Positions 15,800 to 53,429 of a stretch of 64,000 nt of DNA are shown here, one piece after another. The position numbers were made by a program, and so were the translations under genes. Below the pieces are notes generated by a model. That model was not told where the DNA came from, made no database searches, and saw nothing but the letters and a program-made list of their open reading frames with translations. Origin of the DNA: Euryarchaeota archaeon UBA88. GTDB lineage: Archaea > Thermoplasmatota > Poseidoniia > Poseidoniales > Poseidoniaceae. Numbering within the stretch: position 1 is the stretch's first letter; each line of letters starts with the position of its first letter. The DNA lies in NCBI GenBank assembly GCA_002499545.1, contig DAME01000004.1, forward strand, positions 15,577 through 79,576. Direction: 5' to 3'.

Positions 15800-15878
15800 G
15801 GTAGAACCAGTCGTAACTTGACTTTCACCCCTTCGCCTTGAAATGTCCAAAAAGGCATGTTCATGAGTGCGGCACGAT

Positions 15879-30398: not shown

Positions 30399-30630
30399 TC
30401 CATGACCTGCCCACAAAGCGTACGCTTCGCAATACATCATCCCTCTCACACCACTTATGAGGATGATGGAGCGATGTTCGTACACGCCTTCATTGATTCA
30501 CTCCTAAAATACGGATTTTTCTTTGACCTACGATGGATGGTGATGACCCACCCCCTCCCAAATGCAACTTCTCCAAGCGAACCAAGCGGTGTCTTCAAAG
30601 GCCTCTCGCGACCGCTGTGACATCGATACC

Positions 30631-34797: not shown

Positions 34798-35276
34798 TCA
34801 ATGGAAAACTGAAACGCGACGAGGTGGCTGCTGCAACCGAATTAGGTTACATTTTCACATTCCTGCTCGGTGTTCTACTCCTCACAATGTTCAGCTTATG
34901 GGCGTATGAAATTGAAACTGCAACCCGTGAACGATGGAATGTGAATGCGATTCAGTCGAATTTGGACGACCTTGCTGCGGCAGTAGAGCGAGCGGATGAA
35001 GCAAGCCGGATTGGATCAATCGAATATGCGGAAAAAGTCACGTGGAGACTTACAGAAGCTGATGAAAGTCGCTTAACGCTCACCCTCACGGATACGACGA
35101 TTGAACTCTATCATGAAGGAGGGGACCTGGACACCAATGTTTCGATTTCTGGAACGGGAGCTGGAACTCACCAAGGAAGTGTTTTGCTTGCTGGAGCGAC
35201 ATCGATTTGGGTCGTCCACTCCGATGGCGTGACTTCGATTCAATACGACCGTCCGCAGTCTGAAAAACAAGCCTAG
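34794..35276 (+). CDS. Small pilin-like protein, 160 aa (GTG start)
   Basis: GTG 34794 overlaps the stop of the previous gene (GTGA) and is preceded by GGAGG plus 7 nt. The N-terminus KRDEVAAATELGYIFTFLLGVLLLTMFSLWAY has the same charged-then-hydrophobic architecture. The ORF-track start at 34716 lies inside the preceding gene. Confidence 0.45.
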   Translation: MINGKLKRDEVAAATELGYIFTFLLGVLLLTMFSLWAYEIETATRERWNVNAIQSNLDDLAAAVERADEASRIGSIEYAEKVTWRLTEADESRLTLTLTDTTIELYHEGGDLDTNVSISGTGAGTHQGSVLLAGATSIWVVHSDGVTSIQYDRPQSEKQA

Positions 35277-40800: not shown

Positions 40801-42221
40801 ATGGTGTTGTCGTAAATTGTTGCAGACGACATGAAGACGTGAACTGCTGGGCAAAGGAAGTCTCCGTCATACATTTGGGAGTTGCAGGTACCGGTGTTGT
40901 TCGAAATCTGATTGTTTGCAAGGTACAATCGTGCAGCAACTGGAGTGGGCACGTTCCAACCTTGGTCGTTGAAGTGGTACTCACCAATGAGCACGGCTTC
41001 TTTAGCAGTGTCTTGAATCGTGTTGTTTTCCGCAATGACGTCAGAGGTACCGTAAATCCACAGACCGTTCCAACCACCAATCGGTCCAATCACGTTGTTG
41101 TGAGCTTGAACCATCGAAGAACGAATACCGAAACCTGAACCTCCGCTTGCACCAGAAATCGTGTTTCGGCTTGCTTGAACAATAGCTCCATCGTACGCAG
41201 TGATGCCTGTGCCTTCGTCTGTAGTGATTTCATTGTCGTTAAGATACAGGGTGTGATTGATTGTACCGGTCACTTTGTGAGAGTTTGTGTCAATACCACT
41301 GCACTTCGTAACAACGGATGAGTTTGAAAATGATCCTGAGCTCTCCTTCATGAACAGGCCATAGGCATTGTCTTTCAAATCCAGATTTGTCATGTCGATA
41401 TAAGTTCCTTCCATGTAGATGAGAGAACGACCGCCGCCCTGTGTACCACATTCTGCTTGTGTATTACCGGTAAATTCTGAGTCACGAATTTGCATTGTCG
41501 CCAATATTCCAGCGCCAGCATTGTAAGCGAGAATCGCAGCAGCATCATAGCCGTTGCCGTCTGTACCCAAGACAAAAGTCGAATCGGTGATAATCGGGGC
41601 TGCAAAGTCGATTGCAAGAACGTTTGAAGTGTTAATATCTTGGAATGAAAGACCGGTGGCGGTGGTGGTTGAACCATCGAAAACGAGCACACCGTACTGC
41701 TTTCCTGACGATTGTGAAGTTTCGAATGGGATGCCGTATGCGTTTTCGAAGTGAGCGTACTGGATTGAAGTTACAGCTTGATTGATTGTTGAACGAATAA
41801 TCATACCGGAACCGCATGATGTATCAGCATTGTAATTTGGATTGTTGGTGTTGTTGGAATAGCAACGACCGATAATGCTCGTGTCGCTTGGGTCTGACCA
41901 AACGAATCGTGCTTGGTTTGAGGATGAACCTTGGCTTGATCCACAGGATGTATCACCAATACAGATTGCACCTTCAACGTCGATATAGGTTCCATAAGGA
42001 ATATTGACGGTCGTACCTGCATTCACGATGAGTTTAGCACCCTCTGCAACAACAACGTCGCCGTTGAGGTTCATTGTACCGGTCCAGGTTTCCGTACCGG
42101 TAATCGTACCCGCTTTGGTTTCGTTCACTGCAGAGACGGTTGGTATGGCCATAAGGCCGGTTAATGTCGATAACAGAAAAATTGTGACCAACGATATGCT
42201 TTTTGCCGAAGTACTGTTCAT
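37854..42221 (-). CDS. Giant surface protein (1455 aa): right-handed parallel beta-helix (PbH1/NosD-like) + Ig-like domains + C-terminal TM anchor
   Basis: Signal peptide SLVTIFLLSTLTGLMAIPTVSA. PbH1-type repeats (SRNTISGASGGSGFGIRS, AENNTIQDTAKEAVLIGE, IYDNTIVNNAGDGIRMKGS). A CSDGYDNDGDATTDEDDADC motif. Ig-like modules follow (FTGTASDPYSG...). TM helix LLIVGVIVAILALVGVGMFFL, with the tail ending HPGWLWDSEANTWVPDPNYTPDQ. ATG 42221 is preceded by GAGGTG (42230-42235). Confidence 0.75.
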   Translation of the reverse strand: MNSTSAKSISLVTIFLLSTLTGLMAIPTVSAVNETKAGTITGTETWTGTMNLNGDVVVAEGAKLIVNAGTTVNIPYGTYIDVEGAICIGDTSCGSSQGSSSNQARFVWSDPSDTSIIGRCYSNNTNNPNYNADTSCGSGMIIRSTINQAVTSIQYAHFENAYGIPFETSQSSGKQYGVLVFDGSTTTATGLSFQDINTSNVLAIDFAAPIITDSTFVLGTDGNGYDAAAILAYNAGAGILATMQIRDSEFTGNTQAECGTQGGGRSLIYMEGTYIDMTNLDLKDNAYGLFMKESSGSFSNSSVVTKCSGIDTNSHKVTGTINHTLYLNDNEITTDEGTGITAYDGAIVQASRNTISGASGGSGFGIRSSMVQAHNNVIGPIGGWNGLWIYGTSDVIAENNTIQDTAKEAVLIGEYHFNDQGWNVPTPVAARLYLANNQISNNTGTCNSQMYDGDFLCPAVHVFMSSATIYDNTIVNNAGDGIRMKGSIVNAQRNTIEVGGFGANISLYDDNYGSKYGSIGYFSGNTYSNASQVYNITESRVIVQSEYIPDPGDGELYPVHLSWLGPECPFVLDECLLVPSTAIMPPAFMPMALEVVENSTVFSYADLQNFDSSKIHVQNQNSAWGSQVREGELVRYQVKAKNSNVADATVIIRDATGLPLYTMQTDAFGFTPEVSLPSDFLLDRNWNHLVGDIAVPIPGTNDGTGNPIIITENTCSDGYDNDGDATTDEDDADCLNGRELPFYSVEAFKFSKGQKEFDFVLSGSIDDVINLDNLKPSVTVSQNDGFSFATTVQLTGSSWDGISGPYPLDIVSYQNQFGLIKRVEVQPPGSTDWYSAVDTSGANGEITKSNHPFKTWSFNWDLSAHPEGEGDVTFRVRSYDGLDYSPIEVRKYKLNLVAPSILVETPNDGSLHDNGKLTFTGTASDPYSGTWGSDITSIWFDVNGPNGYNANFDISGSIVWAYEWNFQDLPSGEYSFKIWAADSDFCDVKTGWTDCNYESRTLTINTDNAIPFVQLSEPLNSDVLRAAEDQIIQGVALDNDGIVTRVEIDIFDLASGSVVNNGPNPVTNFAPNGAWYTTWDTSDLIHDQQYELVVKAWDGSNFSTEERIRITIDNPTDADNIVPVFNSTGWSNTITLYCDSNPTKFDRCNGGKSIDLMDFFSDADGGEGETNGLTFDIFDDATNLDDDNYADFITLSPNGVAKYDPAFVTGLPDSISEWSLMGLMFEARDAYDSVAYSYKVNILVIEVSFTVSRDGSGPITASSPAKFTGTGLPDSLIEARFDNINGFRINQTRVNSDSTWSMEITSAQLSGITGVRDVIFEMDDQVYSTPNEPGDALFQMSLSSGDDSSSNVLLIVGVIVAILALVGVGMFFLQVEYEDFEEELLATESQETADPYAWAKARQESLAQAQPKATVSTPAAVQAAAPAAQTAQHPGWLWDSEANTWVPDPNYTPDQ

Positions 42222-42258
42222 AGATTGTACACCTCTTAGTTTGTCCATCACAATGACG

Positions 42259-42268
42259 GATATAATAC
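42259..42268 (-). promoter_or_regulatory. Candidate archaeal TATA box for the beta-helix surface protein gene
   Basis: The minus strand reads GTATTATATC about 40-46 nt upstream of ATG 42221. A transcription start ~25 nt downstream would leave a short leader containing the GAGGTG SD. Confidence 0.3.
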
Positions 42269-42391
42269 TGCGCCTCATATGTCGGCCTTGAAGTATCAAA
42301 TAACGATAAATGTATCAATAATATCTCCCTTAGAGTATCAGAACGGGCTATTCGTATCGTATTTCCGTGCAGATTTAGGCCTTCGAAATCG

Positions 42392-43612
42392 TCAGCAACT
42401 CGAATCAATCAGTCCTAATTCATTGTACCAAGAAAGCGCTTGCAACTGACCGTAGCCCCAACGATTGTCATGCGCAACTTCTGAACTGTATGCATAGGCA
42501 GAATTCATCAAAGCAGTTTTGACCACATCAATACATGACCCGTTTGATGTCGAACTTGGCCTATATTCGGGATATGCTTCCAACAAAAGAGCCAGCGCAC
42601 CGGTTACAAATACCGTAGAATCAGATGTACCACTGCTGGAAAACCAGGTATCGTCTGAACCAGTGCTGACGATGTATTGACCTGGTGCGATGATTTCTGG
42701 TTTGAGATGTGGCGATGACCGCAACGAACCATCTGGTAAGATTTGCGATCCAGCTGACGAATTCACCCACACCGATTGACTTTCAGTAGATGCTCCGACC
42801 GTGATGACTCGGGGTACATTCCCCGGTACTGAAACCAATCCATCATCTTCTGCACCTCCGTCGTTACCGGCTGCGGCCACGACGTAGATGCCGGAATCAA
42901 GTGCTCGTCGCACAGAAGATACACTGGCACCCTCCGTTCGCATGTCGACGCTCTGTTCACCTCCCAGTGAGAGTGAGATAATATCTGCATTGAATGCGTC
43001 TTGACACCATTGAATTGCATCAGCGACGGTTTCTTCGGTGCCACTGTTGAGATCGTTTTCATCAGCTCCAAGGGCCGCAGCCATTGCCAGGGTTACGTTC
43101 GGAGCGATCCCAATCTGGTGCTCCTGTGACACTAAAATTCCGGCCATCAGCGTTCCATGAGCGATAAAACCGTAGTCCACAGGTGCATTCGACGATCCGA
43201 GAAAATCTTTGAATCGAACATCTACCTGTGAAAGCGCAGAATGGCTCAAGTCGATACCAGTATCGACCATGCACACTCGAATGCCCTCGCCGCTGAGACC
43301 AAAATCTGCCAACTCATCGAGTTCTGACTGCTCTACAGCCCACTCTGATTTGGGCGGGTTCAATTCAATGAAGAGCAGTCCTGAATCCCACACGACCAGC
43401 AATACACCAACCAACAAAGCGAACAAGACCCCGTTAGCGATGACGCTCTTACGCCGTCGAAGAGTCGGCAATGGCTCTGCGCTTCGAGGGGCCCATCCCG
43501 TTACTTCAGAGCGCCATTCGTTCTGAAAGCCAACAGCAGATGGGTCAATGGCTGACATGATCCTTGAGTCTTCAGGTTCGGGGAGGAGTTCGAACTTGTC
43601 TATTCCTTCCAT
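42392..43612 (-). CDS. Membrane-anchored subtilisin-like serine protease (S8)
   Basis: Catalytic triad contexts VCMVDTGIDLSH (Asp), HGTLMAGIL (His) and SGTSDSTVFVTGALALL (Ser). N-terminal TM helix VLFALLVGVLLVVW. ATG 43612 is preceded by GAGGTG (43619-43624) plus 6 nt. The ORF-track GTG start at 43621 lies inside that SD. Confidence 0.85.
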   Translation of the reverse strand: MEGIDKFELLPEPEDSRIMSAIDPSAVGFQNEWRSEVTGWAPRSAEPLPTLRRRKSVIANGVLFALLVGVLLVVWDSGLLFIELNPPKSEWAVEQSELDELADFGLSGEGIRVCMVDTGIDLSHSALSQVDVRFKDFLGSSNAPVDYGFIAHGTLMAGILVSQEHQIGIAPNVTLAMAAALGADENDLNSGTEETVADAIQWCQDAFNADIISLSLGGEQSVDMRTEGASVSSVRRALDSGIYVVAAAGNDGGAEDDGLVSVPGNVPRVITVGASTESQSVWVNSSAGSQILPDGSLRSSPHLKPEIIAPGQYIVSTGSDDTWFSSSGTSDSTVFVTGALALLLEAYPEYRPSSTSNGSCIDVVKTALMNSAYAYSSEVAHDNRWGYGQLQALSWYNELGLIDSSC

Positions 43613-43618
43613 CCAAGG

Positions 43619-43624
43619 CACCTC
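43619..43624 (-). promoter_or_regulatory. Shine-Dalgarno site GAGGTG for the subtilisin gene
   Basis: GAGGTG lies 6 nt upstream of ATG 43612. The same hexamer recurs upstream of several other starts in the window (42230-42235; AGGTGG at 59620-59625). Confidence 0.5.
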
Positions 43625-43678: not shown

Positions 43679-46600
43679 TCAGAATCGAGTTGTGTTACGT
43701 CCATTACGTGCGAGTTTAACACCGCCATAGACAACCAAGAATCCGAGAAGTAGAATTCCAAATGTCAGCAGAGGAGAATCATCACTTTCGACGAAAACCT
43801 CGTACTTGATTGAAAAGTCGATGACCTTTTCTCCATCTTCACCGATTTGTTGGGTGACATAATCACTTTCCTCACCGACAACTTCGACCTTGACTTCGTA
43901 ACGGACTGTGGCAGATGCATCTTCCGCACTGATAGCAAAGACGACTTGTTCGGTACTCTTTGCACCGATACTGACCGTCTGGCTACCCAAATCAATATCC
44001 GTTCCTTGTATACTTGCAGATACAACAAGGTTCGAAGTGCTGAGATATCCATCATTGTACACCGGAATCACAAGGTCGCCAGCTTCTCCATCTCGCTTGT
44101 CGGAAAGGAGAATGATTTGAGATTGGTCAACCGATAATCGAATGTCGGACTTTGTGAATTCAACGTCGAACGACTCACTTGTCACGCCATCTTCACTGGT
44201 TACTGTAACAGTTAGCGTAGGTGTTCCAGTGAAGTTCTCTGCAGCATAAGCGGTGAACAGTTGCGATCGTACACCGTCCTTTGGAATGGTGACATTTGAG
44301 ATTGGTGGAGTGACTTCCCATCCATCAGGTATGTTATCAGCAAGCGTTATCGAAAATGTATCGTCGCCGTTACCCGTGTTCGTAAGCGTAAATCCAAACG
44401 TGTTGCTTCCGCCGTCAGCGATTCCAACTTCAGACTCCACATCGGAAATTTCGAGACCGTGTTGCTTTGGAACCTGAACAGTGAAGGCAAGTTCGCTTGA
44501 TGCAACACCGTCAGAGTTCAAAATGAGCTTCAACTTGTGTGCTTCTTCCAAGTGCCAAACTTCTGATTGGTTGGCAACCAGTACACGAACTCGAAGAACC
44601 ATCGAATCTTGGACGCTGTCATCAGCGCTATTGTTTCCAATTCCGAGTGTGACATCCTGACTGCTTTCAAATCCAGTACCGTTCCAGAACTCAACAGACC
44701 AATCTGCTTCATCAGGAGAGGACAGAACCTGACCGGACATGGTGAACAGATCAGAAACTTCTGTTCCGTCATACTTGATGTCAACACTGAACTCGACAGC
44801 ATCGTAGCTTTCACCACTTTCAACAGCCATGAAGTCGAGCATGGAACCATTGACGAGCGTCGCATTGACAACCGTATCACTCACCATCGACAAAGATGTG
44901 TCGGAGTTGATTGAACGACTGTATGATAGATTCACGGCAATTCGACCTTCAGCGATGTTGGCCACCGATCCACCAATGTAATCCATTTCAAGCAGTAAAT
45001 CATGTTGCAATGTAGTGAAAGATGAATCCATCGTAACTTCTTGTGAAGGCAGTAGAATGCTAATTTCACCATCGGCATCTACTGGCATATCCCATTCGAT
45101 GCCCTCTCCAATTCCAAACGTGACTGAAACGGTCTCGTTCAGATAGGATGCGCCATCACTTGCGGAACCAGCATGATGCTGAGCCACAGGGTATTCCGAG
45201 GTCCATACTGTGGTCAAATCAACCCAACCACCGAGGGACATCTCGAGGTCCAAAATAGCACCTTCTGAGATACTTGCATCGAGAAGACCGACCGCAACAC
45301 CTCCGCCATTGACACTAGGATTGGCTTGGGTTACCACGACAATCCACTCACCTGGTGAAATAACTGCAGACCAAGAGAGTTGGTCGTTTTCAAAGGTAGA
45401 GTCGACAGAAATCGCCTCACCGGACATTCCCGAAGAAGGATACAGAACAACACTGGCACCGTCGAGGCGCATTGCATCATTGATATCGGTAACATTACCC
45501 GAGACCGGAACGTTACCTGCCATCATTTCCAAGTCGTGAGAAACTGGTTCTGAGTAGACTGGATAAGCGCTTGAGTTCGAAATGTTGTACACTTCAGTAG
45601 CAAACCCTTCCTTTGAGACTGAGACTTGGTATTCATCTTGAATTGGCACAAACAAGGTCCAAACACCGTATTCATCGGTCGTTACAATAGACTCGAATTC
45701 AGTATTATTCATTCCAATGACTTGAACGGTCGTGTTCGCGATACCTTCAGTTCCGTCAGGAATATCGTCAGCATCAAGGTCCCAGAATACTTTACCACCA
45801 ATTTCAACTTCAAGTTCGGCTGTTTGCAATGGTAGAACGAGTGTTCCGTTGTCTGCATCGTCGGTTGTGAACGGCGAACCTGATGTATCGAGCGACCACT
45901 GCTTTTGTGGATTCGATTCATTCAAGAACAAACTCCAGTTTCCTGGCATCAATTGATCGGTGATGTTACCTGATGTGTCACTCTTTGCGAGCGTCACATT
46001 GCCGAGTCCGTCATGGCTCACTGCGGTCACTCGAATACTCGACATGTTAGCTTCAGTCCCGTATTCTTGTAGCTGGAATTCGACTGTTACAACGTCCACA
46101 GTTCGTAGAGGAACACCGGTACGTAGCGACGAATCTGCACCGACTGTGAGAGAATATCGAAGGGTTTCGGTGCTCTCGTTGTCAGCGATGAACGGTGCCA
46201 CGATTGCAATCCAATCGCCTGCAGAGACGTATGCGGAGAACGAACCGTTCTCATCAGATTCAATGTTAAACCACTCATCGGCAACATCGTTACGAAGCAA
46301 GAATTGCTTGGCAATGCCGTCACCTGAGTTATTGGTTAGAACCCCCGTCACGAGGTATTCATTGCGCATTGGAACCGCAATTGGTTCGTCATAGGTTTCC
46401 AAACCAATCAAAATTGGGTCTTGAGCAGAGGTCGTGATGAGAGGTGAATCTGTAGCATTTTCATCAGTAGCAGTTGTTGCGTTGAACACTATGTTGTAAA
46501 TTCCTGGCTCAAGAGTTAGCGTAAGAATTCCGTCAGACGTGTAGTCATCAGCAGTTACATTCACTTGGCTGCCGTGTGTATTGAGAGGAACTAAACTGAA

Positions 46601-49600
46601 AGCAGGTGATACCTTGGTTCCGTTTTCGAAGGCTCCGTCGTCACCCGAATCCATGAACACATTGAGCGTAACGTCCGTGAACGCTGGGTTCACGAACAGT
46701 TCGACAGGCGTAGGCATTCCATCGGTTTCTACTAAGATGTTGTAGTCCTCAACCGTTGTCGAATTCAAGACAGCGTCTTCAACTGTGAAGTCCCAGGCAC
46801 CTTCTTGCAGACTAAACATGAACATTCCAGAATCAGTGATCGTAGTGCGAAGTTCAAGTCCATCTGAATTGGTTGCAACGACTGTTTGCGCGTCGAAACC
46901 TGGCACTATACCTTCCCACAATGATTCGTTGTCATAGAGATACACAAATCCATTGGTACTCACACTGGGTTCAAGGTATTGCAATCCCGAATCAAATTCA
47001 GGCAGTCCTTCGAGAACGATGACCTGTCCAGTGACCCATTGTGAGGTTGTACTGAATGCCGACATGTGGAAGGTGTTTCCACTCGGAAGTTGAATGCTGT
47101 AATTACCGTTCGAATCAGTGGTTGCTGGGAAATGAAGTTCAGAGGATGTGAAGTCTATTGTTAGACTCGGAACCGGAACGCTTTCCATTAGTTTCAGGTC
47201 TTCAGACTTTTCAGACCATTGGGAATACGTTTCGTCGAGACCACTGTTCATGACCCGAATCGTACCGTTAACCCAAGTTGCAATTGCATAGCTGCTGGTC
47301 ATCGAGAGGTCTTCCTGTGCTAATGAGAAGGAATCAAACAGGATGTAATCTTCAGCAGTTTGATCAGATATCGTGTAGTCTCCCATTGGAAGTTCGATTT
47401 CAACACCACCAGTTTCATTGGATACCGCATCGATTGCAGGGAACGTTGGGTCGTCATTGGTGAACGTCACAGTGCGCATGGAAATGTTCGCATACGGTTC
47501 CTGCGTGAGTGGATCAACCGGTGAAGCCAGTTGGAGGGTCACATCATGCATTTCAGGAACGCTCATCAATAATGAGAAATTTTCAGACGTATCACGGACG
47601 ATCAGTGTTTGGTTCAACTCATACCATCCATCGCCGTCGATGTCGACTCGATAGAAGTATTCGCCTGATGCGAGAGGCCCGAAACTAAAGTTCCCTTCCT
47701 CGTCAGTGGTTTCAAACATTGATTGTTCTGTACCGAGTGCAATATCGACCAATTCAATTTTCTGACCTACGAATGGTATTTCGAAAAAGTCGTCGAGTGT
47801 ATCTTGGAAGATAGAACCAGGCATCGTCATAGCGAGGTCATAGGTTGGTTCGACACCAACATTCACCGGATCTGGTAGAAGTACTTCCTTACCGTTCTCG
47901 AGTTGAGCGATCATGTGGTATATACCAGGTGTAAGACCCGTGATGTAGAACGAACCAGGTTGGACCATTGGCCCAGAGAAAGAACCAACGCCGACAAACA
48001 GTCCGGTTCCGTTGAATGTCCCGGTACCTGCGTATGAACCCGAGGCTTCGAAAGAGTCACCTTCGTGCTCAGTTACAAGCGTCGAAACTCCATCGGATGT
48101 GAGCCGTCCATTTGCTTCGATTACACCGTCCAGCAAGTACATCATTTCATCAGCATCTTGCAGACAAAGCGTTTCATTCTCCGGCATCGGTGCAGTACTG
48201 TTATCGAGACAGGATGCGACCGTATCTTGTCCAACCCATGAGGCGATCAAGGTACCCTTGCCGCTCCAAGTACCGTTGCTGGTGTAAACACGCTGATCAC
48301 CGATGGAGCGAGTGAATGTTCCGGTGAAGTCCCGGACAAATGCCACTCCGTCGCTGTCGAATGTTCCGTTCTCGGTGAACGTTACTTCACCAGAACCCTG
48401 TAAGATTCTGCTATCGGTAGAGGTGAACGAACCGTTGGTTGTTGTCAAAGTATAGTTCTCAGTCATCGACCAAATGTTGCGTAGAATGAAATCTGTAGAG
48501 ATAAGAGCATCACCGTCAAACGATTCATCGCCTGACCAAGTGACAAGTCCAGATACGCCGCTGCTTTGCACGGCGATATCGAAGGTAGAAGTCACTGGTT
48601 CAAGGCGGTCAGCCTGTGCACCAGAAACATTGTACTGAGTTTCACCAAGCCAGCTCATGTTAGCAACTTCACCGAGAATAGCGGTGATGTCATTGATTTG
48701 GCGGTCTTCATTGGTAGGACTCAAAATGTCTCCAAGAATTTGTTCAATGTAGCCTTGAGTTTGGCCGTTTGAGCGCAGACTGTCTTGAGCGACTGTTGGG
48801 TCGTAAACACCCGCAAAGGCGCTCACGCGGATGCTACCAGCAGGTGCATCAAACGACCAGTGTCCGTTCTCATCTGAATCGACCATTCCGATTGGAATCC
48901 AATAGGTATCAGGATCCAAATCTTCGCTGTCTTCGCCAGAGAACGCGTCACGCTCGATGAGCAGTCGAACATTTGGTAGTCCCTCGCCGTTATCGCTCAT
49001 GGTAACTTGACCGCTGATTTCAGCTCCCGAGTAGTACTTCAGAATCTTTACGTCCGTGTTTGCGTTCCAAAGGTTGGCTTGTTGTTCCTGCATCGTCACG
49101 GATGAATTTGCTTCAGCACTGTACCAGTTAGCGATTACAAAGTGATTGGTCATTGCACCCGGGAGTGCCGGAGCACGAGCCAAGACGCTTCCTGGACTAC
49201 CGTAATCACCAGCATACTGAGCCTGTCCAGCAATCCATCGAAGAGTGGATGAGGGTTGTGGATTGGATGAACCTGAATCGATTCCGAGGGTCGATGCGCC
49301 GTATCCAACATAGTTTCGGGCAAGCATGGTGTCAAAGAACTCAGGGTTGTGGTCGACGCGGATATCTTGAACCTGAAGTGGCTCAACGTCGGCGCCTGAT
49401 TGCTGATTGAGATAATCTTGCGTAATGGCCGCATCGACTTCCTCTCGAGTCATTTCATCTTGGAATTCACCGCGAGTTGTTTCGTAAACCTCAGTCATGT
49501 ACGTTGCCATGTCTTGACCGCTGAGAATTGTAGGTGCTCCGAAGATACCGGTTGGTTGGCCGCTGTTGTAGTTGTAGTCCGCAGTGTTACGACCTGCCTT

Positions 49601-52600
49601 AGGGTACAAGCGGTTGTCGACAGCAAAGTATCGGATTTCGTGATTTCGGTCAATCATATCGCCTGGAGCCCCGTCATAGTTTTGAACGCTGTAGATTTCG
49701 AGCTGCATCAATTCATGGTACATGTCGAAGATTTCATCGCTTGTCAAAGCGTTATCAAAGAGTTGTACCGTTAGAGCAAGGCGAGCATTCTTTCGATGAA
49801 TGTTGGTTGCCACGGAATCATATTCATCAACGAGGTCAGCAGTGTACCAGTAGTCACCGATAATGTAGTGAGTCGTATCGAGTGTGGTGTCTTGACCAGA
49901 TCGAATGTTGTTGGTGAAGGTTCGGTCTGCTTCGGACTTCTCAGACCATTCGCCGTCAACACAGCTAGCAGAAAGGGAGTCGGTGCACACAATAGGCTCG
50001 CCACCCTTGTAGATTCTCCAGTACGGTGTCGAATCGTCATATATTCCGTCGACTTGGTGGTGCCCTACCGCCATTACGACATCAGAATTGGTTTCGATAA
50101 CTGCATAACTGCTCGCTTCAATCAAGTCGATCATTTGCTCGTTGTTGGTGTTCATGGTGATGTCGTTGAACAATTCCATCTGCGATGATTCGACCAAGAA
50201 ATTGTCGACGACGCCTGAGAAACCGTTCGTGAATTGTTCTGTGCCGGTTTTCTCAGCCATGTACGAGATGTCACCTTGAGCAAGTTGCCAGATAAACATC
50301 GAAGTCAAATCTTCCTGAGTGCGTGCGAGTAGCATGTTACCAGTTGCAGGAATTCCAGATTGGAAGTTGTCTGAGACTGACGGGTGTTCACCACTTTCAA
50401 GAGCAGCGAATCCATAGTCCCACCACGATACGAAAGCGGGTTTGTCAGAGTACTGCATGAGACAGGCAGCTGTAGCCGCATCCCAGATACCATCAACATC
50501 GATACAGGATGCTTGGTCAGTAATGCCGTCATGGAGTACGTCTTGTTCTGACAGCCATTGATGCGCATAGTTCCAACCTTGTGATTCGAAGGTTGAGCCG
50601 AAGTATCCGAGGTAACTGTTACCGGCATAGGCAGCATCATCGAGAAGTGAAAATCCACCAATTTCCCAACGCATGATGTCAGGGATGATGTTGTAGATGG
50701 TCTCATCAAGGTTTGATTCGTCGTTGCTTCGTGGCATTGCAGCATCCAGTCCATATGTGGCTTGCTGACCAAAGAGCATGACCATAATCAAAAGAATTGC
50801 AGAGAACGATGGTGTGCGCCAAACGGCAATTCGCGCTCCGCGAATACGGTCTTCTGGTGCACGTACACCCAGTTTCTTCCACGTGCGTACCAAACCATCC
50901 CAGTTCGCCCACTTCCACAGCGATACGATACCCCAAGCGCCAAGTACGGCGATTGCTGGAGTTGCGTTGAAACTGAAACGAGCGGCGGTCCACGCCATGA
51001 ATGAGGCAGTGATAATCCACACACCGAAAACAAGTTTGATCTGCTTTCTTTCACGCAGTGCTGACCAAAGACAAAGGACACCCATGATCAGCGAAAGGAG
51101 GAACGTGATCGGACCAAACTCCGCAAACATTCGCCCACGAGGAGGGGCATTTGCTTCCGCAACAGTTCCAAAAATCTTGGTTTTGGTGAAGTAACCGCTA
51201 CCAGTGAACAGAACATCCCACGCATTGGAGAGGTTTGCTTGCTTGAGCAGCCAAAGAACCGTAAAGAAAAGCAAACCTGCTCCAGCAAGAACACCAAGAA
51301 TTAGCAACCATGGCTTATCTCGGAATCCAGTTGTCACGAAGCTGATAGCAATCGTGAAGAAGAAGATAAACAAGAATGGTTGAAGTCCAGTTCCGTCAAG
51401 AACCAAGTCGATTTGCGGATGGGCAAACCACGGTAGAGCCATCATGAGGTTCACGCTTAACATGGTGAGGAACAAGACATTCAACGTGGTCGAATCACGG
51501 CGACGGAACATGTTCAGAGCCACTTGGGCAGCGTATGCTAAGAACAGAATCGATGGACCTACAACGAATCCTTTCCATCCCAGAGAAACTACACCGAACG
51601 ATACACCTGCGAGCACTGCCGCTGCCATTGCAGCCTGACGTTGCTGTACTACAGCGGAGAAAGATGCGAGGAACGAACGCAGTGACGGCGAGGATTGCTT
51701 GAGCAAGCGTTCTGAGCCAGCGTATTTGACTGCGCGCAACCAAAACAGGAATCCGAGAGAGATGAACAGCATGATGAATGCATCGTGGTCAGCTAATCCC
51801 CACGTGGTGTGACTCACGTGAGCAGGCATGAATGCAATGAGCCAAGCAGCAACAACTGCGGCTTTTTCGTTGATGTGTTCCTTGGCGATGAGAGCGACTG
51901 GATAAATGGTCAAAGCTCCGTAAATTGCAGGCAGGGATAGGATAGCCCACCAAACTGCATCGCCGTTGTCAAAGAACGGTCCAAGAAGCGTTGCAAGGAT
52001 TGCAATCGACCAGGTGAACAACGGAGGTCGAGGGTTGATACCGCCGATTGGATAGTAGCGATCAGCATCGTAAATCATGTGAGCATTGTTCGCTAGGATA
52101 TAGTCGACGACTCGCTTCATGTACCAGGGGTCAGAACCTCCTGTCATGTCCCACTCGCCTGTTCCAGTCGAGTTCATGGAGGGCACGATGTACCACTGCA
52201 TGCGGATGATAAGACCGAACATGAAAGCAAGACCAATCATGATACCTGCCCAGTGTTGATTCCAAAACAGACGTGCACCGGAGTACTCGTGGTCATCTCG
52301 GTTCGACCATCCGCCCCAGCGATCGTGTGTTGAGATTGAATAGATTCCAACACCGAGGAAGAACGTGACGCCAACCCAAATCAGGCTGCCCCAGTTTCCT
52401 TCGAGCATCGAAGAAGTGAACAATCCAGCATCGTACCACGTCGAAACGAGGTAAAGCATCCACATTGAGCCAAGCGTCATGGCACGAGTATGCCAACGCT
52501 CAGCAAACATTCCTGCAACGATAAGCGAGACCATGCCAGTGAACAATGCAGGCCAAAAACCGAAGTAACCGTGGTATCCTTCAATCACTGAAACTCCAAG

Positions 52601-53362
52601 TTGGTCCGCTTCAGAGACTTGGCCAAAGTGCCAAAGGCTTGCGGATTGAGCAAAAATCCAAACAAATAGAGCTGCTTGAAGAGGTAGGTTGTGCTTGTTC
52701 ATCAAGGAACCTTTTTGATCGTTTAGGAAACTAAACCATCCAGACTCGCTTGCAGGAGTGATTCGTCCACGAGCAAATGTTGCCAACAATGTTCCGATTA
52801 AGAGGAAGATGACGACGTATGAAAAGAACACATAACCAACGGCTTGGTTGCGCAAGTTGATGGTTGATGCATAGCTCACCTGTTCGCCGTCTGCAGCGAC
52901 ATTGATGATGTTTGGAAGAGTACCAAGAGCCTCAGTTGCAGCAACGATACCGACGTTGATACCCATTGTGGCGAAGACCAAAATGGTTGCAAACTCATAG
53001 CGCCCACGTGATGACATGAAGTGAACTCCGAACATCACTACAGCGAACTGCAATGCAGTGAATGCACTGTAGTCAAGCCCAGTGATAATTTGTGAACCAA
53101 TCAAGGCAAAGACCAATGTAGAGAGGGAGAGAGTGGTCGGTGACAAGGAATTGGGAGAGGAACGAGTGAGCACCATTGGAGCGAGCCCCAACAGGCCGGC
53201 AATCCCGACGATGAACATCGGTGCCAAGTTCTCAGTGTTCAACCCGTCTTCGATGCCGACGAGTTGGATGGCTGCGAGTGCTAGCAAGACTGCAAGTGGG
53301 GCAATAAGCCATCCAAGAGCAGGTGCCGGCGCAGTGCTTTGTGTGCCAGTTTTTTTATCCAT
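43679..53362 (-). CDS. aglB: Giant AglB/STT3-type oligosaccharyltransferase (3227 aa) with extra N-terminal TM bundle, repeat-rich external extension and C-terminal TM anchor
   Basis: The WWDYG motif (FVSWWDYGFAALESGEHP) is at 50411-50425. The first-loop motif GGSDPWYMKRVVDY is at about 52100-52150. GLADHDAF lies in a later loop. About ten predicted TM helices precede the STT3 core. After WWDYG come ~2240 aa with many CarboxypepD_reg-like modules (for example ISGQVTMSDNGEGLPNVRLLIE...DENGHWSFDAPAGSIRVSA, TTDEEGNFSFGPLASGEYFYRV, TTDSNGNYSIQLPSGNTFHMSA) and a CARDB-like module (FGFTLTNTGNGDDTFSITL). The terminal TM helix is LLTFGILLLGFLVVYGGV. ATG 53362 is preceded by GAGGG and an A-run. The ORF-track start at 53419 is GTG. 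Confidence 0.85.
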   Translation of the reverse strand: MDKKTGTQSTAPAPALGWLIAPLAVLLALAAIQLVGIEDGLNTENLAPMFIVGIAGLLGLAPMVLTRSSPNSLSPTTLSLSTLVFALIGSQIITGLDYSAFTALQFAVVMFGVHFMSSRGRYEFATILVFATMGINVGIVAATEALGTLPNIINVAADGEQVSYASTINLRNQAVGYVFFSYVVIFLLIGTLLATFARGRITPASESGWFSFLNDQKGSLMNKHNLPLQAALFVWIFAQSASLWHFGQVSEADQLGVSVIEGYHGYFGFWPALFTGMVSLIVAGMFAERWHTRAMTLGSMWMLYLVSTWYDAGLFTSSMLEGNWGSLIWVGVTFFLGVGIYSISTHDRWGGWSNRDDHEYSGARLFWNQHWAGIMIGLAFMFGLIIRMQWYIVPSMNSTGTGEWDMTGGSDPWYMKRVVDYILANNAHMIYDADRYYPIGGINPRPPLFTWSIAILATLLGPFFDNGDAVWWAILSLPAIYGALTIYPVALIAKEHINEKAAVVAAWLIAFMPAHVSHTTWGLADHDAFIMLFISLGFLFWLRAVKYAGSERLLKQSSPSLRSFLASFSAVVQQRQAAMAAAVLAGVSFGVVSLGWKGFVVGPSILFLAYAAQVALNMFRRRDSTTLNVLFLTMLSVNLMMALPWFAHPQIDLVLDGTGLQPFLFIFFFTIAISFVTTGFRDKPWLLILGVLAGAGLLFFTVLWLLKQANLSNAWDVLFTGSGYFTKTKIFGTVAEANAPPRGRMFAEFGPITFLLSLIMGVLCLWSALRERKQIKLVFGVWIITASFMAWTAARFSFNATPAIAVLGAWGIVSLWKWANWDGLVRTWKKLGVRAPEDRIRGARIAVWRTPSFSAILLIMVMLFGQQATYGLDAAMPRSNDESNLDETIYNIIPDIMRWEIGGFSLLDDAAYAGNSYLGYFGSTFESQGWNYAHQWLSEQDVLHDGITDQASCIDVDGIWDAATAACLMQYSDKPAFVSWWDYGFAALESGEHPSVSDNFQSGIPATGNMLLARTQEDLTSMFIWQLAQGDISYMAEKTGTEQFTNGFSGVVDNFLVESSQMELFNDITMNTNNEQMIDLIEASSYAVIETNSDVVMAVGHHQVDGIYDDSTPYWRIYKGGEPIVCTDSLSASCVDGEWSEKSEADRTFTNNIRSGQDTTLDTTHYIIGDYWYTADLVDEYDSVATNIHRKNARLALTVQLFDNALTSDEIFDMYHELMQLEIYSVQNYDGAPGDMIDRNHEIRYFAVDNRLYPKAGRNTADYNYNSGQPTGIFGAPTILSGQDMATYMTEVYETTRGEFQDEMTREEVDAAITQDYLNQQSGADVEPLQVQDIRVDHNPEFFDTMLARNYVGYGASTLGIDSGSSNPQPSSTLRWIAGQAQYAGDYGSPGSVLARAPALPGAMTNHFVIANWYSAEANSSVTMQEQQANLWNANTDVKILKYYSGAEISGQVTMSDNGEGLPNVRLLIERDAFSGEDSEDLDPDTYWIPIGMVDSDENGHWSFDAPAGSIRVSAFAGVYDPTVAQDSLRSNGQTQGYIEQILGDILSPTNEDRQINDITAILGEVANMSWLGETQYNVSGAQADRLEPVTSTFDIAVQSSGVSGLVTWSGDESFDGDALISTDFILRNIWSMTENYTLTTTNGSFTSTDSRILQGSGEVTFTENGTFDSDGVAFVRDFTGTFTRSIGDQRVYTSNGTWSGKGTLIASWVGQDTVASCLDNSTAPMPENETLCLQDADEMMYLLDGVIEANGRLTSDGVSTLVTEHEGDSFEASGSYAGTGTFNGTGLFVGVGSFSGPMVQPGSFYITGLTPGIYHMIAQLENGKEVLLPDPVNVGVEPTYDLAMTMPGSIFQDTLDDFFEIPFVGQKIELVDIALGTEQSMFETTDEEGNFSFGPLASGEYFYRVDIDGDGWYELNQTLIVRDTSENFSLLMSVPEMHDVTLQLASPVDPLTQEPYANISMRTVTFTNDDPTFPAIDAVSNETGGVEIELPMGDYTISDQTAEDYILFDSFSLAQEDLSMTSSYAIATWVNGTIRVMNSGLDETYSQWSEKSEDLKLMESVPVPSLTIDFTSSELHFPATTDSNGNYSIQLPSGNTFHMSAFSTTSQWVTGQVIVLEGLPEFDSGLQYLEPSVSTNGFVYLYDNESLWEGIVPGFDAQTVVATNSDGLELRTTITDSGMFMFSLQEGAWDFTVEDAVLNSTTVEDYNILVETDGMPTPVELFVNPAFTDVTLNVFMDSGDDGAFENGTKVSPAFSLVPLNTHGSQVNVTADDYTSDGILTLTLEPGIYNIVFNATTATDENATDSPLITTSAQDPILIGLETYDEPIAVPMRNEYLVTGVLTNNSGDGIAKQFLLRNDVADEWFNIESDENGSFSAYVSAGDWIAIVAPFIADNESTETLRYSLTVGADSSLRTGVPLRTVDVVTVEFQLQEYGTEANMSSIRVTAVSHDGLGNVTLAKSDTSGNITDQLMPGNWSLFLNESNPQKQWSLDTSGSPFTTDDADNGTLVLPLQTAELEVEIGGKVFWDLDADDIPDGTEGIANTTVQVIGMNNTEFESIVTTDEYGVWTLFVPIQDEYQVSVSKEGFATEVYNISNSSAYPVYSEPVSHDLEMMAGNVPVSGNVTDINDAMRLDGASVVLYPSSGMSGEAISVDSTFENDQLSWSAVISPGEWIVVVTQANPSVNGGGVAVGLLDASISEGAILDLEMSLGGWVDLTTVWTSEYPVAQHHAGSASDGASYLNETVSVTFGIGEGIEWDMPVDADGEISILLPSQEVTMDSSFTTLQHDLLLEMDYIGGSVANIAEGRIAVNLSYSRSINSDTSLSMVSDTVVNATLVNGSMLDFMAVESGESYDAVEFSVDIKYDGTEVSDLFTMSGQVLSSPDEADWSVEFWNGTGFESSQDVTLGIGNNSADDSVQDSMVLRVRVLVANQSEVWHLEEAHKLKLILNSDGVASSELAFTVQVPKQHGLEISDVESEVGIADGGSNTFGFTLTNTGNGDDTFSITLADNIPDGWEVTPPISNVTIPKDGVRSQLFTAYAAENFTGTPTLTVTVTSEDGVTSESFDVEFTKSDIRLSVDQSQIILLSDKRDGEAGDLVIPVYNDGYLSTSNLVVSASIQGTDIDLGSQTVSIGAKSTEQVVFAISAEDASATVRYEVKVEVVGEESDYVTQQIGEDGEKVIDFSIKYEVFVESDDSPLLTFGILLLGFLVVYGGVKLARNGRNTTRF

Positions 53363-53429
53363 TTTTTTTCCCTCAAAGGTGTTTACGCGACAGCAGCAAG
53401 GCTGAAGCGTCTTCGCCACTGAAGACCCT

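What the first reader, a model, noticed from the sequence alone, without database searches (positions are those of the whole stretch)
43679..53362. A >3200 aa AglB/STT3 oligosaccharyltransferase with extra TM bundle, ~2200 aa external repeat region and a second membrane anchor
Seen in sequence: one uninterrupted ORF carries the STT3/AglB catalytic hallmarks, namely WWDYG at 50411-50425, a DPWY..R first-loop motif near 52100-52150, and GLADHDAF. These are embedded in a protein several times larger than the archaeal AglB enzymes I am aware of, which are on the order of 600-1000 aa. By eye, about ten hydrophobic helices precede the STT3 core. An even number would preserve the core's topology. After WWDYG come ~2240 aa of tandem CarboxypepD_reg/Ig/CARDB-like modules ending in another TM helix (LLTFGILLLGFLVVYGGV) and a short basic tail. 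The external portion would therefore be tethered at both ends. Inference: the enzyme that N-glycosylates surface proteins may itself be a major structural or envelope-spanning element, or may scaffold its substrates. I know of no described OST with this architecture.
Basis: partly seen in the sequence, partly recalled or inferred. Interest (0 to 1): 0.8.

Follow-up and report, generated by a model that had tools for sequence, protein, structure and literature searches.

The report
Giant membrane-tethered N-glycosylation enzyme of marine archaea
This is a real, intact 3,227-residue version of the archaeal enzyme that attaches sugars to surface proteins, with ten extra membrane helices in front and a huge sugar-site-rich outer arm anchored again at its far end; a slightly simpler giant form turns out to be common across the phylum Thermoplasmatota, including cultured Thermoplasma, though I found no paper describing it.

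Summary
One uninterrupted ORF on the minus strand (ATG 53362 to stop 43679, 3,227 aa) carries a significant STT3/AglB core. All four recognisable catalytic motifs are invariant. Ten extra N-terminal TM helices preserve the core topology. A ~2,200 aa acidic ectodomain ends in a TM helix and a basic tail.

It is not an assembly chimera. At least 120 collinear full-length homologues (3,125-3,206 aa, 49-68% identity) come from independent Poseidoniales (Marine Group II) assemblies. At least 552 loci exist in GTDB species genomes.

The claim of uniqueness is only partly right. STT3 core + long CarboxypepD_reg-rich ectodomain + C-terminal TM anchor is found widely in Thermoplasmatota as 2,000-2,800 aa proteins. 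One is the 2,076 aa AglB of cultured Thermoplasma volcanium. Specific to Marine Group II are:
- the family-less 10-TM N-terminal module;
- ~1,000 extra ectodomain residues;
- an invariant C-terminal Phe.

The ectodomain has 2.2-fold more N-glycosylation sequons than chance predicts, and many are conserved. Clear tandem repeats cover only aa ~1800-2615.

My best reading is an active oligosaccharyltransferase whose own glycosylated, doubly tethered arm is a cell-surface element. I found no paper describing this architecture. Verdict: new variant of a known kind, moderately high interest.

The parts
43679..53362 (-). Complete CDS of the giant AglB (3,227 aa plus stop at 43679-43681)
   Evidence: uninterrupted ORF. 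It is 100% identical to P0001, which was seen on 5 contigs. 120 full-length collinear homologues.
52280..53362 (-). N-terminal 10-TM extension (aa 1-361), specific to Marine Group II. Conserved cytoplasmic-loop motifs are RG..P....GWF, AERWxTR and YGGWxNR.
   Evidence: Ten helices in the AF2 secondary structure. Positive-inside alternation. No Pfam, PDB or NCBIfam family. Not a duplicate of the core and not an internal repeat. Absent from the 2,000-2,800 aa relatives.
50741..52279 (-). STT3/AglB 13-TM catalytic membrane core (aa 362-874)
   Evidence: PF02516, TIGR04154, alignment to 3WAJ. Foldseek top hits are AfAglB structures. This is the most conserved part of the protein.
52121..52132 (-). 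EL1 motif DPWY with catalytic Asp411 (equivalent to AfAglB Asp47)
   Evidence: invariant; aligned GGSDPWY / GGNDPWY.
51782..51799 (-). GLADHD, the second acidic (DxD-type) motif, Asp525-His526-Asp527
   Evidence: invariant; aligned to AfAglB NDHH.
51155..51166 (-). EL5 TVAE motif (TIXE-type), Thr733 and Glu736
   Evidence: T733 and E736 invariant; aligned to AfAglB TIAE.
50411..50425 (-). WWDYG motif (aa 980-984)
   Evidence: invariant in Marine Group II, and W-D-Y-G invariant across the Thermoplasmatota relatives.
49073..50740 (-). External catalytic domain with large conserved insertions (aa 875-1430). It includes a confidently modelled alpha/beta unit at aa ~1009-1229 and the conserved strand EIRYFAVDNRLYP (aa 1241-1253).
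   Evidence: pLDDT 80-95 for model residues 70-290; conservation extends to T. volcanium. No Pfam family. No sequons in aa 866-1418.
48803..49069 (-). First transthyretin-like / CarboxypepD_reg domain (aa ~1432-1520)
   Evidence: pLDDT 70-90; Foldseek hits to transthyretin and pilin-shaft folds; aligned to T. volcanium.
47966..48802 (-). Conserved, family-less, sequon-rich beta region (aa 1521-1799)
   Evidence: seven of its ten sequons are conserved in at least 87% of homologues.
45518..47965 (-). Tandem array of about 8-9 transthyretin-like (CarboxypepD_reg/SpaA/NOMO-like) modules of ~87-98 aa (aa ~1800-2615)
   Evidence: profile self-alignment, probabilities to 94%. (PF13620 at 61.6 bits, above cut-off, plus weaker hits to SdrD_B, SpaA and NOMO1-like).
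43775..45517 (-). Distal non-repeat beta-sandwich region (aa 2616-3196), with FixG_C/CARDB/choice-of-anchor-T-like similarity at aa ~2950-3065
   Evidence: weak hits. This is the least conserved part of the protein.
43718..43774 (-). C-terminal transmembrane helix (aa 3197-3215) with conserved Y-G-G
   Evidence: hydropathy 2.12; conserved in 129 homologues; a terminal TM is present in nearly all complete giant relatives.
43682..43717 (-). Short basic cytoplasmic tail ending in an invariant Phe (KLARNGRNTTRF)
   Evidence: the last residue is F in 129 of 129 Marine Group II-type proteins ([RK]F in 123, PF in 6).

Best explanation
The gene encodes a catalytically competent AglB (STT3-type oligosaccharyltransferase) of a Poseidoniales (Marine Group II) archaeon.

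It belongs to a clade of giant AglBs widespread in Thermoplasmatota. In this clade the 13-TM catalytic core is fused at its external C-terminal side to a very long, acidic, beta-sandwich-rich arm. The arm returns to the membrane through a single terminal TM helix with a basic cytoplasmic tail.

The Marine Group II version adds three things:
- a family-less 10-TM module in front of the core (N-terminus inside, so the core topology is kept; about 24 TM helices in all);
- about 1,000 more arm residues;
- an invariant C-terminal Phe.

Proposed mechanism. The core transfers the lipid-linked glycan to Asn-X-Ser/Thr sites of exported proteins in the usual way. The enzyme's own arm carries about 45 sequons, many conserved, and is itself heavily N-glycosylated. 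It forms a doubly anchored glycoprotein arch or loop on the cell surface. In this reading the arm is part of the glycocalyx in a lineage whose cultured relatives often lack an S-layer. It may also keep the enzyme positioned in the envelope.

Shown: ORF integrity, family assignment, motif invariance, topology logic, phylogenetic spread, repeat anatomy, sequon enrichment.

Inferred: catalytic activity, self-glycosylation, the structural role, and any contact between the C-terminal helix or tail and the N-terminal module.
For: Family and motifs:
- PF02516 E=1.7e-16.
- TIGR04154 E=1e-52.
- 3WAJ E=1.6e-9, with D411, D525/H526/D527, TVAE and WWDYG aligned; these residues are invariant.
- Foldseek top hits are AfAglB structures.

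Topology:
- 10 helices before core TM1.
- In the query, Lys/Arg are absent from all five putative outer loops. Across 129 homologues they are scarce there (means 0.0-1.1) and more frequent in the six inner loops (1.1-2.9).
- C-terminal TM plus basic tail.

Real and conserved:
- 120 collinear homologues of 3,125-3,206 aa.
- At least 552 loci in GTDB species genomes, the best 80 nearly all labelled Poseidoniales or unclassified archaeal MAGs.
- Conserved synteny in distant Marine Group II genomes.

Spread across the phylum:
- 2,000-2,800 aa relatives with a terminal TM.
- These are named Thermoplasma volcanium, Oxyplasma, Cuniculiplasma, Caldiplasma, Marine Group III and Thermoplasmata.
- Homology extends beyond the core into the arm.

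Arm as glycoprotein:
- 46 sequons against 21 +/- 4 expected (z=6.2).
- 19 sequons conserved in at least 80% of 120 homologues.
- None in the catalytic external domain.
- D+E 338 against K+R 76.

Context:
- Cuniculiplasma isolates lack an S-layer and are bounded only by a membrane (PMC5155288).
- An oligosaccharyltransferase gene is differentially transcribed in a Marine Group IIb genus (PMC9723583).
Against: - No biochemical, proteomic or imaging evidence was available; the envelope of Marine Group II cells is not known to me.
- Both AF2 models are poor (mean pLDDT 55-56). The 3D arrangement, the DK/MI pocket and any N-module/C-helix contact are therefore untested.
- The score against NCBI's archaeal STT3 subfamily model is far below its cut-off (179 against 450 bits), so this is a divergent branch.
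- In some relatives the terminal helix looks like a PGF-CTERM-type sorting signal. The second anchor could therefore be processed rather than kept as a helix.
- I could not establish whether these genomes also carry a normal-sized AglB.
Confidence: 0.6

Rival explanations
1. Single-chain OST holo-complex. The N-terminal 10-TM module, the arm and its terminal TM play the part that accessory subunits play in eukaryotic OST (ribophorin I, OST48, Swp1, Ost3/6 and others): holding or selecting nascent substrates, docking to the Sec translocon, or handling the lipid-linked donor. They would not be building the envelope.
For: - The N-module's conservation is concentrated in cytoplasmic loops (RG..P....GWF, AERWxTR, YGGWxNR), as expected for a docking surface.
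- The proximal arm (aa 1009-1430, 1521-1850) is more conserved than the distal arm. This fits a functional rather than a spacer role.
- The N-module and the invariant C-terminal Phe co-occur only in Marine Group II, which hints at an intramolecular assembly.
- From my own knowledge, eukaryotic accessory subunits are likewise beta-sandwich lumenal domains with one C-terminal TM and a short tail.
Against: - No detectable sequence or fold similarity between the N-module and any known family.
- The distal ~1,400 aa are poorly conserved, repeat-like and sequon-rich. That looks like surface decoration, not a substrate-handling machine.
Confidence: 0.2
2. Precursor or sorting-signal model. The C-terminal helix is a cleavable sorting signal of the archaeosortase/PGF-CTERM type, or the chain is cut between the enzyme and the arm, for example by the conserved neighbouring subtilase. 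The mature products would then be a normal-sized AglB plus a separately anchored or released surface glycoprotein.
For: - Several 2,000-2,800 aa relatives end in PGF/PSF + hydrophobic stretch + Arg-rich tail (10 listed).
- One of them scores just under the Loki-CTERM/Heimdall-CTERM cut-offs.
- The best NCBIfam model is the 'archaeosortase A system-associated' STT3.
- An S8 subtilase gene lies 57 nt downstream on the same strand, and this position is kept in two distant Marine Group II genomes.
Against: - The Marine Group II tail has no PGF motif and matches no CTERM sorting model.
- Its invariant terminal Phe and Y-G-G differ from known signals.
- Other surface proteins in the window do not share this ending, so it does not look like a general sorting tag.
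- No conserved linker or cleavage motif was identified.
Confidence: 0.15
3. Pseudo-enzyme: the STT3 part is only a membrane anchor for a giant adhesin or surface protein.
For: Great size, adhesin-like beta-sandwich repeats, and a score below the subfamily cut-off.
Against: All recognisable catalytic motifs are invariant across 26-120 homologues, and the core is the most conserved part of the protein. No normal-sized AglB from Poseidoniales appeared among the searches; the short hits were fragments of giant genes.
Confidence: 0.03
4. Assembly chimera, or a read-through of several genes.
For: In two long contigs the gene is called as three ORFs.
Against: In those contigs the neighbouring genes are split as well (HD, S8, purD), and the pieces overlap or abut as frameshift errors do. 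120 independent assemblies give one collinear ORF of constant length. An identical protein occurs on 5 contigs. No tandem DNA repeats and even GC.
Confidence: 0.01

Closest known systems
Archaeoglobus fulgidus AglB-L (PDB 3WAJ/3WAK/5GMY/7E9S; chain of 875 residues)
   Same: GT-C oligosaccharyltransferase with a 13-TM core. The EL1 Asp, the second acidic motif, the EL5 T-I/V-x-E motif and WWDYG align residue for residue. These structures are the best Foldseek matches.
   Different: About 17-19% identity. It has no N-terminal 10-TM module. Its external domain is ~370 aa (CC, IS and P1 units; PMC3703281), against ~2,330 aa here. It has no C-terminal TM anchor. The DK-type pocket motif could not be located here.
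Giant AglBs of other Thermoplasmatota, e.g. Thermoplasma volcanium GSS1 TVG1271204 (P0251, 2,076 aa), Oxyplasma meridianum (2,113 aa), Caldiplasma sukawensis (2,093 aa), and Marine Group III / Thermoplasmata MAG proteins of 2,000-2,800 aa
   Same: The same core, the conserved post-WWDYG strand (YFAxDxRLxP), CarboxypepD_reg modules, and a single terminal TM helix with a basic tail. These are clearly the same clade and the same overall design.
   Different: 27-35% identity in the core. They have no 10-TM N-terminal module, since matches start at query aa ~365-405. The arm is shorter by ~700-1,100 aa. They end in R or K, not Phe. Some end in PGF-CTERM-like signals. In Thermoplasmatales the second acidic motif reads DGRxH instead of DHD.
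Eukaryotic OST complex (STT3 plus ribophorin I, OST48/Wbp1, Swp1, Ost2, Ost3/6, Ost4)
   Same: Analogy only, from my own knowledge. An STT3 core is surrounded by extra TM helices and by beta-sandwich lumenal domains, each held by a C-terminal TM with a short cytosolic tail. Total TM count is in the twenties.
   Different: In eukaryotes these are separate polypeptides; here everything is one chain. No sequence or fold homology of the extra parts to those subunits was detected.
NOMO (nodal modulator) of the eukaryotic BOS complex, and other CarboxypepD_reg / transthyretin-like 'beads on a string' proteins including Gram-positive pilin shafts
   Same: A string of prealbumin-like beta-sandwich modules ending in one TM helix and a short tail. 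There are weak Pfam hits to NOMO1-like domains and Foldseek hits to transthyretin and SpaA/BcpA pilin domains.
   Different: The hits are below Pfam cut-offs and reflect a generic fold. NOMO is not fused to an enzyme.
Haloferax-type AglB of TIGR04154 ('archaeosortase A system-associated' STT3)
   Same: It is the best-scoring curated subfamily model.
   Different: 179 bits against the 450-bit cut-off, so the query is not a member. The model is 831 positions long and covers only aa 374-1017 of the query.

Membership tests
STT3/AglB/PglB oligosaccharyltransferase (Pfam PF02516, GT-C) | Significant match to the STT3 profile above the curated threshold | tested here: met
   PF02516: 61.2 bits against 24.5, E=1.7e-16, aa 409-667. 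TIGR04154: E=1e-52 over aa 374-1017. 3WAJ: E=1.6e-9.
STT3/AglB/PglB oligosaccharyltransferase (Pfam PF02516, GT-C) | WWDYG motif in the external domain just after the last core TM | tested here: met
   aa 980-984. Invariant in alignments A1, A2 and A5.
STT3/AglB/PglB oligosaccharyltransferase (Pfam PF02516, GT-C) | Two acidic (DxD-type) motifs in the first external loop region that bind the metal and activate the amide | tested here: met
   Asp411 aligns with AfAglB Asp47. Asp525-His-Asp527 aligns with AfAglB Asp-His-His. All are invariant in Marine Group II homologues.
STT3/AglB/PglB oligosaccharyltransferase (Pfam PF02516, GT-C) | EL5 loop TIXE/SVSE-type motif with catalytic Glu | tested here: met
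   TVAE at aa 733-736 aligns with AfAglB TIAE. T733 and E736 are invariant.
STT3/AglB/PglB oligosaccharyltransferase (Pfam PF02516, GT-C) | DK or MI motif on the kinked helix forming the Ser/Thr pocket (DXXKXXX(M/I), E<>KXXX(M/I/P) or MXXIXXX(I/V/W); PMC3703281) | tested here: inconclusive
   A conserved strand plus D-x5-K/R (EIRYFAVDNRLYPK/R, aa 1241-1253) lies 260 aa after WWDYG. It does not fit the published consensus, and the AF2 model is too poor there. The cited paper says such variants usually need a structure to be recognised.
STT3/AglB/PglB oligosaccharyltransferase (Pfam PF02516, GT-C) | 13-TM core with N-terminus in the cytoplasm and C-terminal domain outside | tested here: met
   This is a prediction only. 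Thirteen long helices lie between aa 362 and 874 in the AF2 secondary structure. Ten preceding helices show strict positive-inside alternation, which places core TM1 N-in/C-out.
STT3/AglB/PglB oligosaccharyltransferase (Pfam PF02516, GT-C) | Transfers a lipid-linked oligosaccharide to Asn of N-X-S/T | not testable with these tools
   Needs biochemistry or genetics.
TIGR04154 archaeo_STT3 (archaeosortase A system-associated OST subfamily) | Score at or above the curated subfamily cut-off (450 bits) | tested here: not met
   179.5 bits. T. volcanium P0251 likewise scores 190 bits.
PGF-CTERM / related archaeal C-terminal sorting signals | PGF (or variant) tripeptide + hydrophobic helix + basic tail at the extreme C-terminus, recognised by the NCBIfam sorting-domain models | tested here: not met
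   The query ends SPLLTFGILLLGFLVVYGGVKLARNGRNTTRF, with no PGF and no CTERM model hit. Some non-Marine Group II relatives do carry PGF/PSF endings, and one is a near-threshold Loki-CTERM hit.
CarboxypepD_reg / transthyretin-like beta-sandwich repeats (PF13620) | Profile match above the gathering score, and repeated units | tested here: met
   PF13620: 61.6 bits against 32.3. Repeats of ~87-98 aa across aa 1800-2615. Transthyretin and pilin folds by Foldseek.
Thermoplasmatota giant-AglB clade (unnamed; defined here) | STT3 core + conserved YF[AG]xDxR[LM]xP strand + CarboxypepD_reg-rich arm of more than 1,400 aa + single terminal TM helix with a basic tail | tested here: met

The most novel reading that the evidence does not exclude
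In Marine Group II archaea, among the most abundant archaea of the surface ocean, the N-glycosylation enzyme is itself a principal building block of the cell envelope and a self-contained OST machine. One 24-TM chain would have its N-terminal 10-TM module clasp the C-terminal helix and its invariant Phe tail. This would close a ~2,200-residue self-glycosylated arch over the active site. The arch would both form the cell's glycocalyx (in place of an S-layer) and channel substrates, making it a single-polypeptide analogue of the multi-subunit eukaryotic OST.
Probability: 0.15. Interest if true: 0.85.

Novelty: new variant of a known kind. Interest (0 to 1): 0.58.

Why it matters
AglB is usually described from enzymes of well under 1,100 residues whose external domain is a small add-on to the catalytic core. 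This work shows three things.

1. Across the phylum Thermoplasmatota, including cultured Thermoplasma, AglB is two to three times that size and is tethered to the membrane at both ends.
2. In the globally abundant Marine Group II archaea it reaches ~3,200 residues, with a further 10-TM module that has no known relatives.
3. I found no paper that discusses this.

If the arm is a self-glycosylated surface element, it links the glycosylation machinery directly to envelope construction in archaea, some of whose cultured relatives lack an S-layer. It would also give a concrete, very large and conserved surface antigen for uncultured Marine Group II cells, useful for viruses, grazing, particle attachment studies, metaproteomics and labelling.

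The N-terminal module and the invariant C-terminal Phe are clean targets for structure prediction and for heterologous tests in Haloferax or Methanococcus aglB mutants.

Tried and rejected
- AF2 of aa 1-1150 (26-sequence alignment) and of aa 940-1900 (31 sequences) both gave mean pLDDT ~55. I used only the secondary structure and two locally confident pieces.
It found nothing for the N-module or for the confident aa 1009-1229 unit.
- The N-module could have been a duplicated STT3 half or an internal 5+5 repeat. hhalign probabilities were below 1%, so I rejected both ideas.
- The N-module as a free-standing protein elsewhere: a profile search returned only short proteins. The two on long contigs are frameshift fragments of the same giant gene, and their neighbouring genes are split too. 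Rejected.
- Pfam, NCBIfam and PDB sequence searches of the N-module and of aa 1021-1800 found nothing credible.
- A shared C-terminal sorting tag among other surface proteins in the window: not seen.
- An adjacent N-glycosylation gene cluster: not present. The neighbours are purD, CarS, a CARDB protein, an S8 subtilase and a beta-helix protein. The only GT2 gene is ~28 kb away.
- A second, normal-sized AglB in Poseidoniales: the short STT3 hits I checked were fragments of giant genes from Marine Group III or other Thermoplasmatota. The question stays open because no complete genome could be scanned.
- Six literature searches found no description of giant AglBs.
Full report
**Observation**

The window holds one open frame on the minus strand from 53419 to 43679 (3,246 codons from a GTG). 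The ATG at 53362 gives 3,227 aa. That exact protein is already in public collections (P0001, five contigs from NCBI, JGI, ENA and Tara), and nearly all homologues start at the equivalent Met.

- WWDYG at aa 980-984 (nt 50411-50425).
- DPWY at aa 411-414 (nt 52121-52132).
- GLADHD at aa 522-527.

GC content is even across the gene and there are no DNA tandem repeats.

**Is it an STT3/AglB?**

Yes.
- Pfam STT3 scores 61 bits against a 24.5-bit threshold (aa 409-667).
- The NCBI archaeal STT3 model aligns over aa 374-1017 with E=1e-52, although the score is far below its subfamily cut-off.
- phmmer finds only Archaeoglobus fulgidus AglB-L among solved structures (E=1.6e-9).

In that alignment GGSDPWY matches GGNDPWY (Asp411 = AfAglB Asp47). 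ADHD matches NDHH (the second acidic motif). TVAE matches TIAE (the EL5 catalytic Glu). WWDYG matches WWDYG. All these residues are invariant in a 26-sequence alignment spanning 54-73% identity.

Even a poor AF2 model retrieves the four AfAglB structures and a chain of a human secretory-translocon complex (9n9j_I) as top Foldseek hits.

The DK/MI pocket motif could not be placed. A conserved strand plus basic residue (EIRYFAVDNRLYP-K/R, aa 1241-1253) is a candidate. It does not fit the published consensus, and the literature says such variants usually need a structure to be recognised (PMC3703281).

**Topology**

AF2 secondary structure gives ten long helices before the first core helix (aa 362-392). 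In the query the five putative outer loops contain no Lys or Arg, while every putative inner loop does.

Across 129 homologues the means are:
- inner loops: K+R 1.5, 1.1, 1.9, 2.8, 2.0, 2.9;
- outer loops: K+R 0.03, 0.0, 1.1, 0.7, 0.2.

The arm is then outside. It ends in a strongly hydrophobic helix (aa 3197-3215) followed by a basic tail. The total is about 24 TM helices.

**Not an artefact**

The first homology search returned 120 full-length proteins of 3,125-3,206 aa. All are collinear at 99-100% coverage and 49-68% identity. They come from many independent metagenome assemblies, and the named ones are labelled Euryarchaeota, Poseidoniales, Poseidoniaceae or Thermoplasmatota.

A scan of one genome per GTDB species found at least 552 confirmed loci. 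Nearly all of the best 80 carry Poseidoniales-type or unclassified archaeal MAG labels; one (L038) is labelled Verrucomicrobiales, probably a binning error.

In two long contigs the gene is called as three ORFs. There the neighbouring HD, subtilase and purD genes are split too, and the pieces overlap as frameshift errors do. The same two contigs show that the neighbourhood CARDB protein - CarS - purD - AglB - S8 subtilase - beta-helix protein is kept in distant Marine Group II lineages.

An exhaustive HMMER search of 1.84 billion representatives with aa 1-1100 gave 815 hits.
- About a dozen representatives are 3,146-3,228 aa and match from the N-terminus.
- Dozens more are 2,000-2,775 aa proteins at 29-35% identity whose match begins at query aa ~365-405. 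They lack the N-terminal module.
- Nearly all complete ones have a single hydrophobic segment within the last ~40 residues, followed by an Arg/Lys-rich end.

Names attached to these clusters include Thermoplasmata and Thermoplasmatota MAGs, Marine Group III, Caldiplasma sukawensis, Cuniculiplasma, Oxyplasma meridianum, Acidiplasma, Thermoplasma sp. and Thermoplasma volcanium GSS1 TVG1271204 (2,076 aa). Sources annotate them as dolichyl-phosphooligosaccharide-protein glycotransferase, AglB, STT3 domain protein or glycosyltransferase family 39.

Homology to the query extends past the core into the arm: the YFAxDxRLxP strand, the first CarboxypepD_reg domain and more.

The design 'AglB + long arm + second anchor' is therefore widespread in the phylum and is present in a reference genome of a cultured species. 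It is not unique to this window. Six full-text searches found no paper that remarks on it. Papers on Thermoplasmatales simply note that AglB is present.

**What is specific to Marine Group II**

1. *The 10-TM N-terminal module (aa 1-361).*
   - It has no Pfam, NCBIfam or PDB relative.
   - It is not a duplicate of the core or of itself.
   - It was not found as a free-standing gene.
   - Its most conserved features are cytoplasmic-loop motifs: RG..P....GWF, AERWxTR and YGGWxNR.
2. *About 1,000 additional arm residues.*
3. *A terminal helix with conserved Y-G-G and an invariant last residue Phe.* This holds in 129 of 129 proteins. Only 3 of 197 shorter relatives end in Phe.

The N-module and the Phe ending co-occur. 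This suggests, but does not show, that the two ends of the chain meet.

**Anatomy of the arm**

- aa 875-1430: the external catalytic domain with large conserved insertions. It includes an alpha/beta unit at aa ~1009-1229 that AF2 models with pLDDT 80-95 but that has no Foldseek match.
- aa ~1432-1520: a transthyretin-like CarboxypepD_reg domain.
- aa 1521-1799: conserved beta structure without a family.
- aa ~1800-2615: eight or nine tandem ~87-98 aa transthyretin-like modules (profile self-alignment; PF13620 above threshold).
- aa 2616-3196: less conserved beta-sandwich domains with weak FixG_C, CARDB and choice-of-anchor-T similarity.

Conservation falls from the core (0.8-0.9) through the proximal arm (0.7-0.85) to the distal arm (0.45-0.65).

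The arm is very acidic (338 Asp+Glu against 76 Lys+Arg). It carries 46 N-X-S/T sequons where 21 +/- 4 are expected from composition (z=6.2). Nineteen of the protein's sequons are conserved in at least 80% of 120 homologues, and 18 of these lie in the arm. Homologues carry 33-60 sequons. There are none in the catalytic external domain, aa 866-1418.

**Mechanism proposed**

The core works as a standard AglB. The arm is its own, probably major, substrate. Held at both ends, it forms a glycosylated arch on the surface.

This would make sense in a phylum where cultured members such as Cuniculiplasma are bounded only by a membrane and lack an S-layer (PMC5155288).

Transcription of an oligosaccharyltransferase gene in Marine Group IIb has been reported (PMC9723583).

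Activity, self-glycosylation and the structural role are inferences.

**Rivals**

1. The extra parts act like the accessory subunits of eukaryotic OST, in substrate handling or translocon docking. This is favoured by the cytoplasmic-loop conservation of the N-module and by the well-conserved proximal arm.
2. The terminal helix is a processed sorting signal, or the chain is cleaved. This is favoured by PGF-CTERM-like endings in some relatives and by the conserved downstream subtilase. Against it, the Marine Group II ending matches no known signal and other surface proteins here do not share it.
3. A pseudo-enzyme. This is contradicted by motif invariance.
4. A chimera. This is contradicted by the homologues.

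**Verdict**

The thing is a new variant of a known kind: a Marine Group II-specific elaboration of a giant-AglB design that is widespread in Thermoplasmatota, already sits in databases under generic names, and is, as far as I could find, undiscussed.

Interest is moderate to high. Specialists would be surprised by the size, the 24-TM topology and the double tether, and it offers a handle on the unknown envelope of a very abundant uncultured archaeon. It does not point to a new catalytic mechanism.

Noticed in passing
window 42392-43621 (-) and 37854-42299 (-); L081 and L082: An S8 subtilase gene starts 57 nt after the AglB stop on the same strand, followed by a 1,481 aa beta-helix/Big_7 surface protein. 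The same order (purD - AglB - S8 - beta-helix, with CarS and a CARDB protein upstream) is kept in two distant Marine Group II contigs. A functional link, such as processing of the arm, is possible but untested.
   Followed up: partly
window 43682-43717 (-): The cytoplasmic tail of every Marine Group II-type giant AglB ends in Phe ([RK]F in 123 of 129, PF in 6 of 129). The shorter Thermoplasmatota relatives end in Arg or Lys. I know of no sorting or docking signal of this form.
   Followed up: partly
window 53363-53419 (-): The 19 codons upstream of the ATG (VAKTLQPCCCRVNTFEGKK) resemble the annotated N-terminus of one homologue (P0083: MAKSLQPSGCRENKTEGKK...). This could be a conserved leader region or an alternative start.
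   Followed up: no
window 19150-24573 (-) and 24645-30485 (-): Two further very large ORFs (1,807 and 1,946 aa) with signal-peptide-like starts. The first has no Pfam family at all and the second has only a bacterial TSP3 repeat. They are probably giant surface proteins of unknown type.
   Followed up: no
window 31505-32590 (+) and 32587-34797 (+): Two overlapping genes with archaeal type IV pilin-like N-termini (Pilin_N / DUF7289), 361 and 736 aa.
   Followed up: no
window 35273-37795 (-): An 840 aa protein combining an N-terminal HTH, a STAND/AAA_16 NTPase and TPR repeats (MalT-like). It sits between the pilin-like genes and the surface-protein genes.
   Followed up: no
L081 10001-19576; L082 10001-19560: In long-contig assemblies (887 kb and 696 kb) the giant gene and several neighbours are split by apparent frameshifts into 2-3 ORFs. 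This creates spurious 'N-module only' proteins in protein databases.
   Followed up: yes
P0251 and other Thermoplasmatales relatives (alignments A4, A5): In the Thermoplasmatales giant AglBs the position of the second acidic motif (ADHD in Marine Group II) reads DGRxHTPE. Either the metal-binding motif has shifted or the alignment is off there.
   Followed up: no
L038 (contig NZEQ01000036.1): One locus carrying a typical Marine Group II giant AglB (68% identity) is labelled 'Verrucomicrobiales bacterium' in its record. This is probably a mis-binned contig.
   Followed up: no
window 14768-15850 (-): A GT2-family glycosyltransferase (360 aa) is the only other glycosylation-type gene seen in the window, ~28 kb from aglB.
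   Followed up: no
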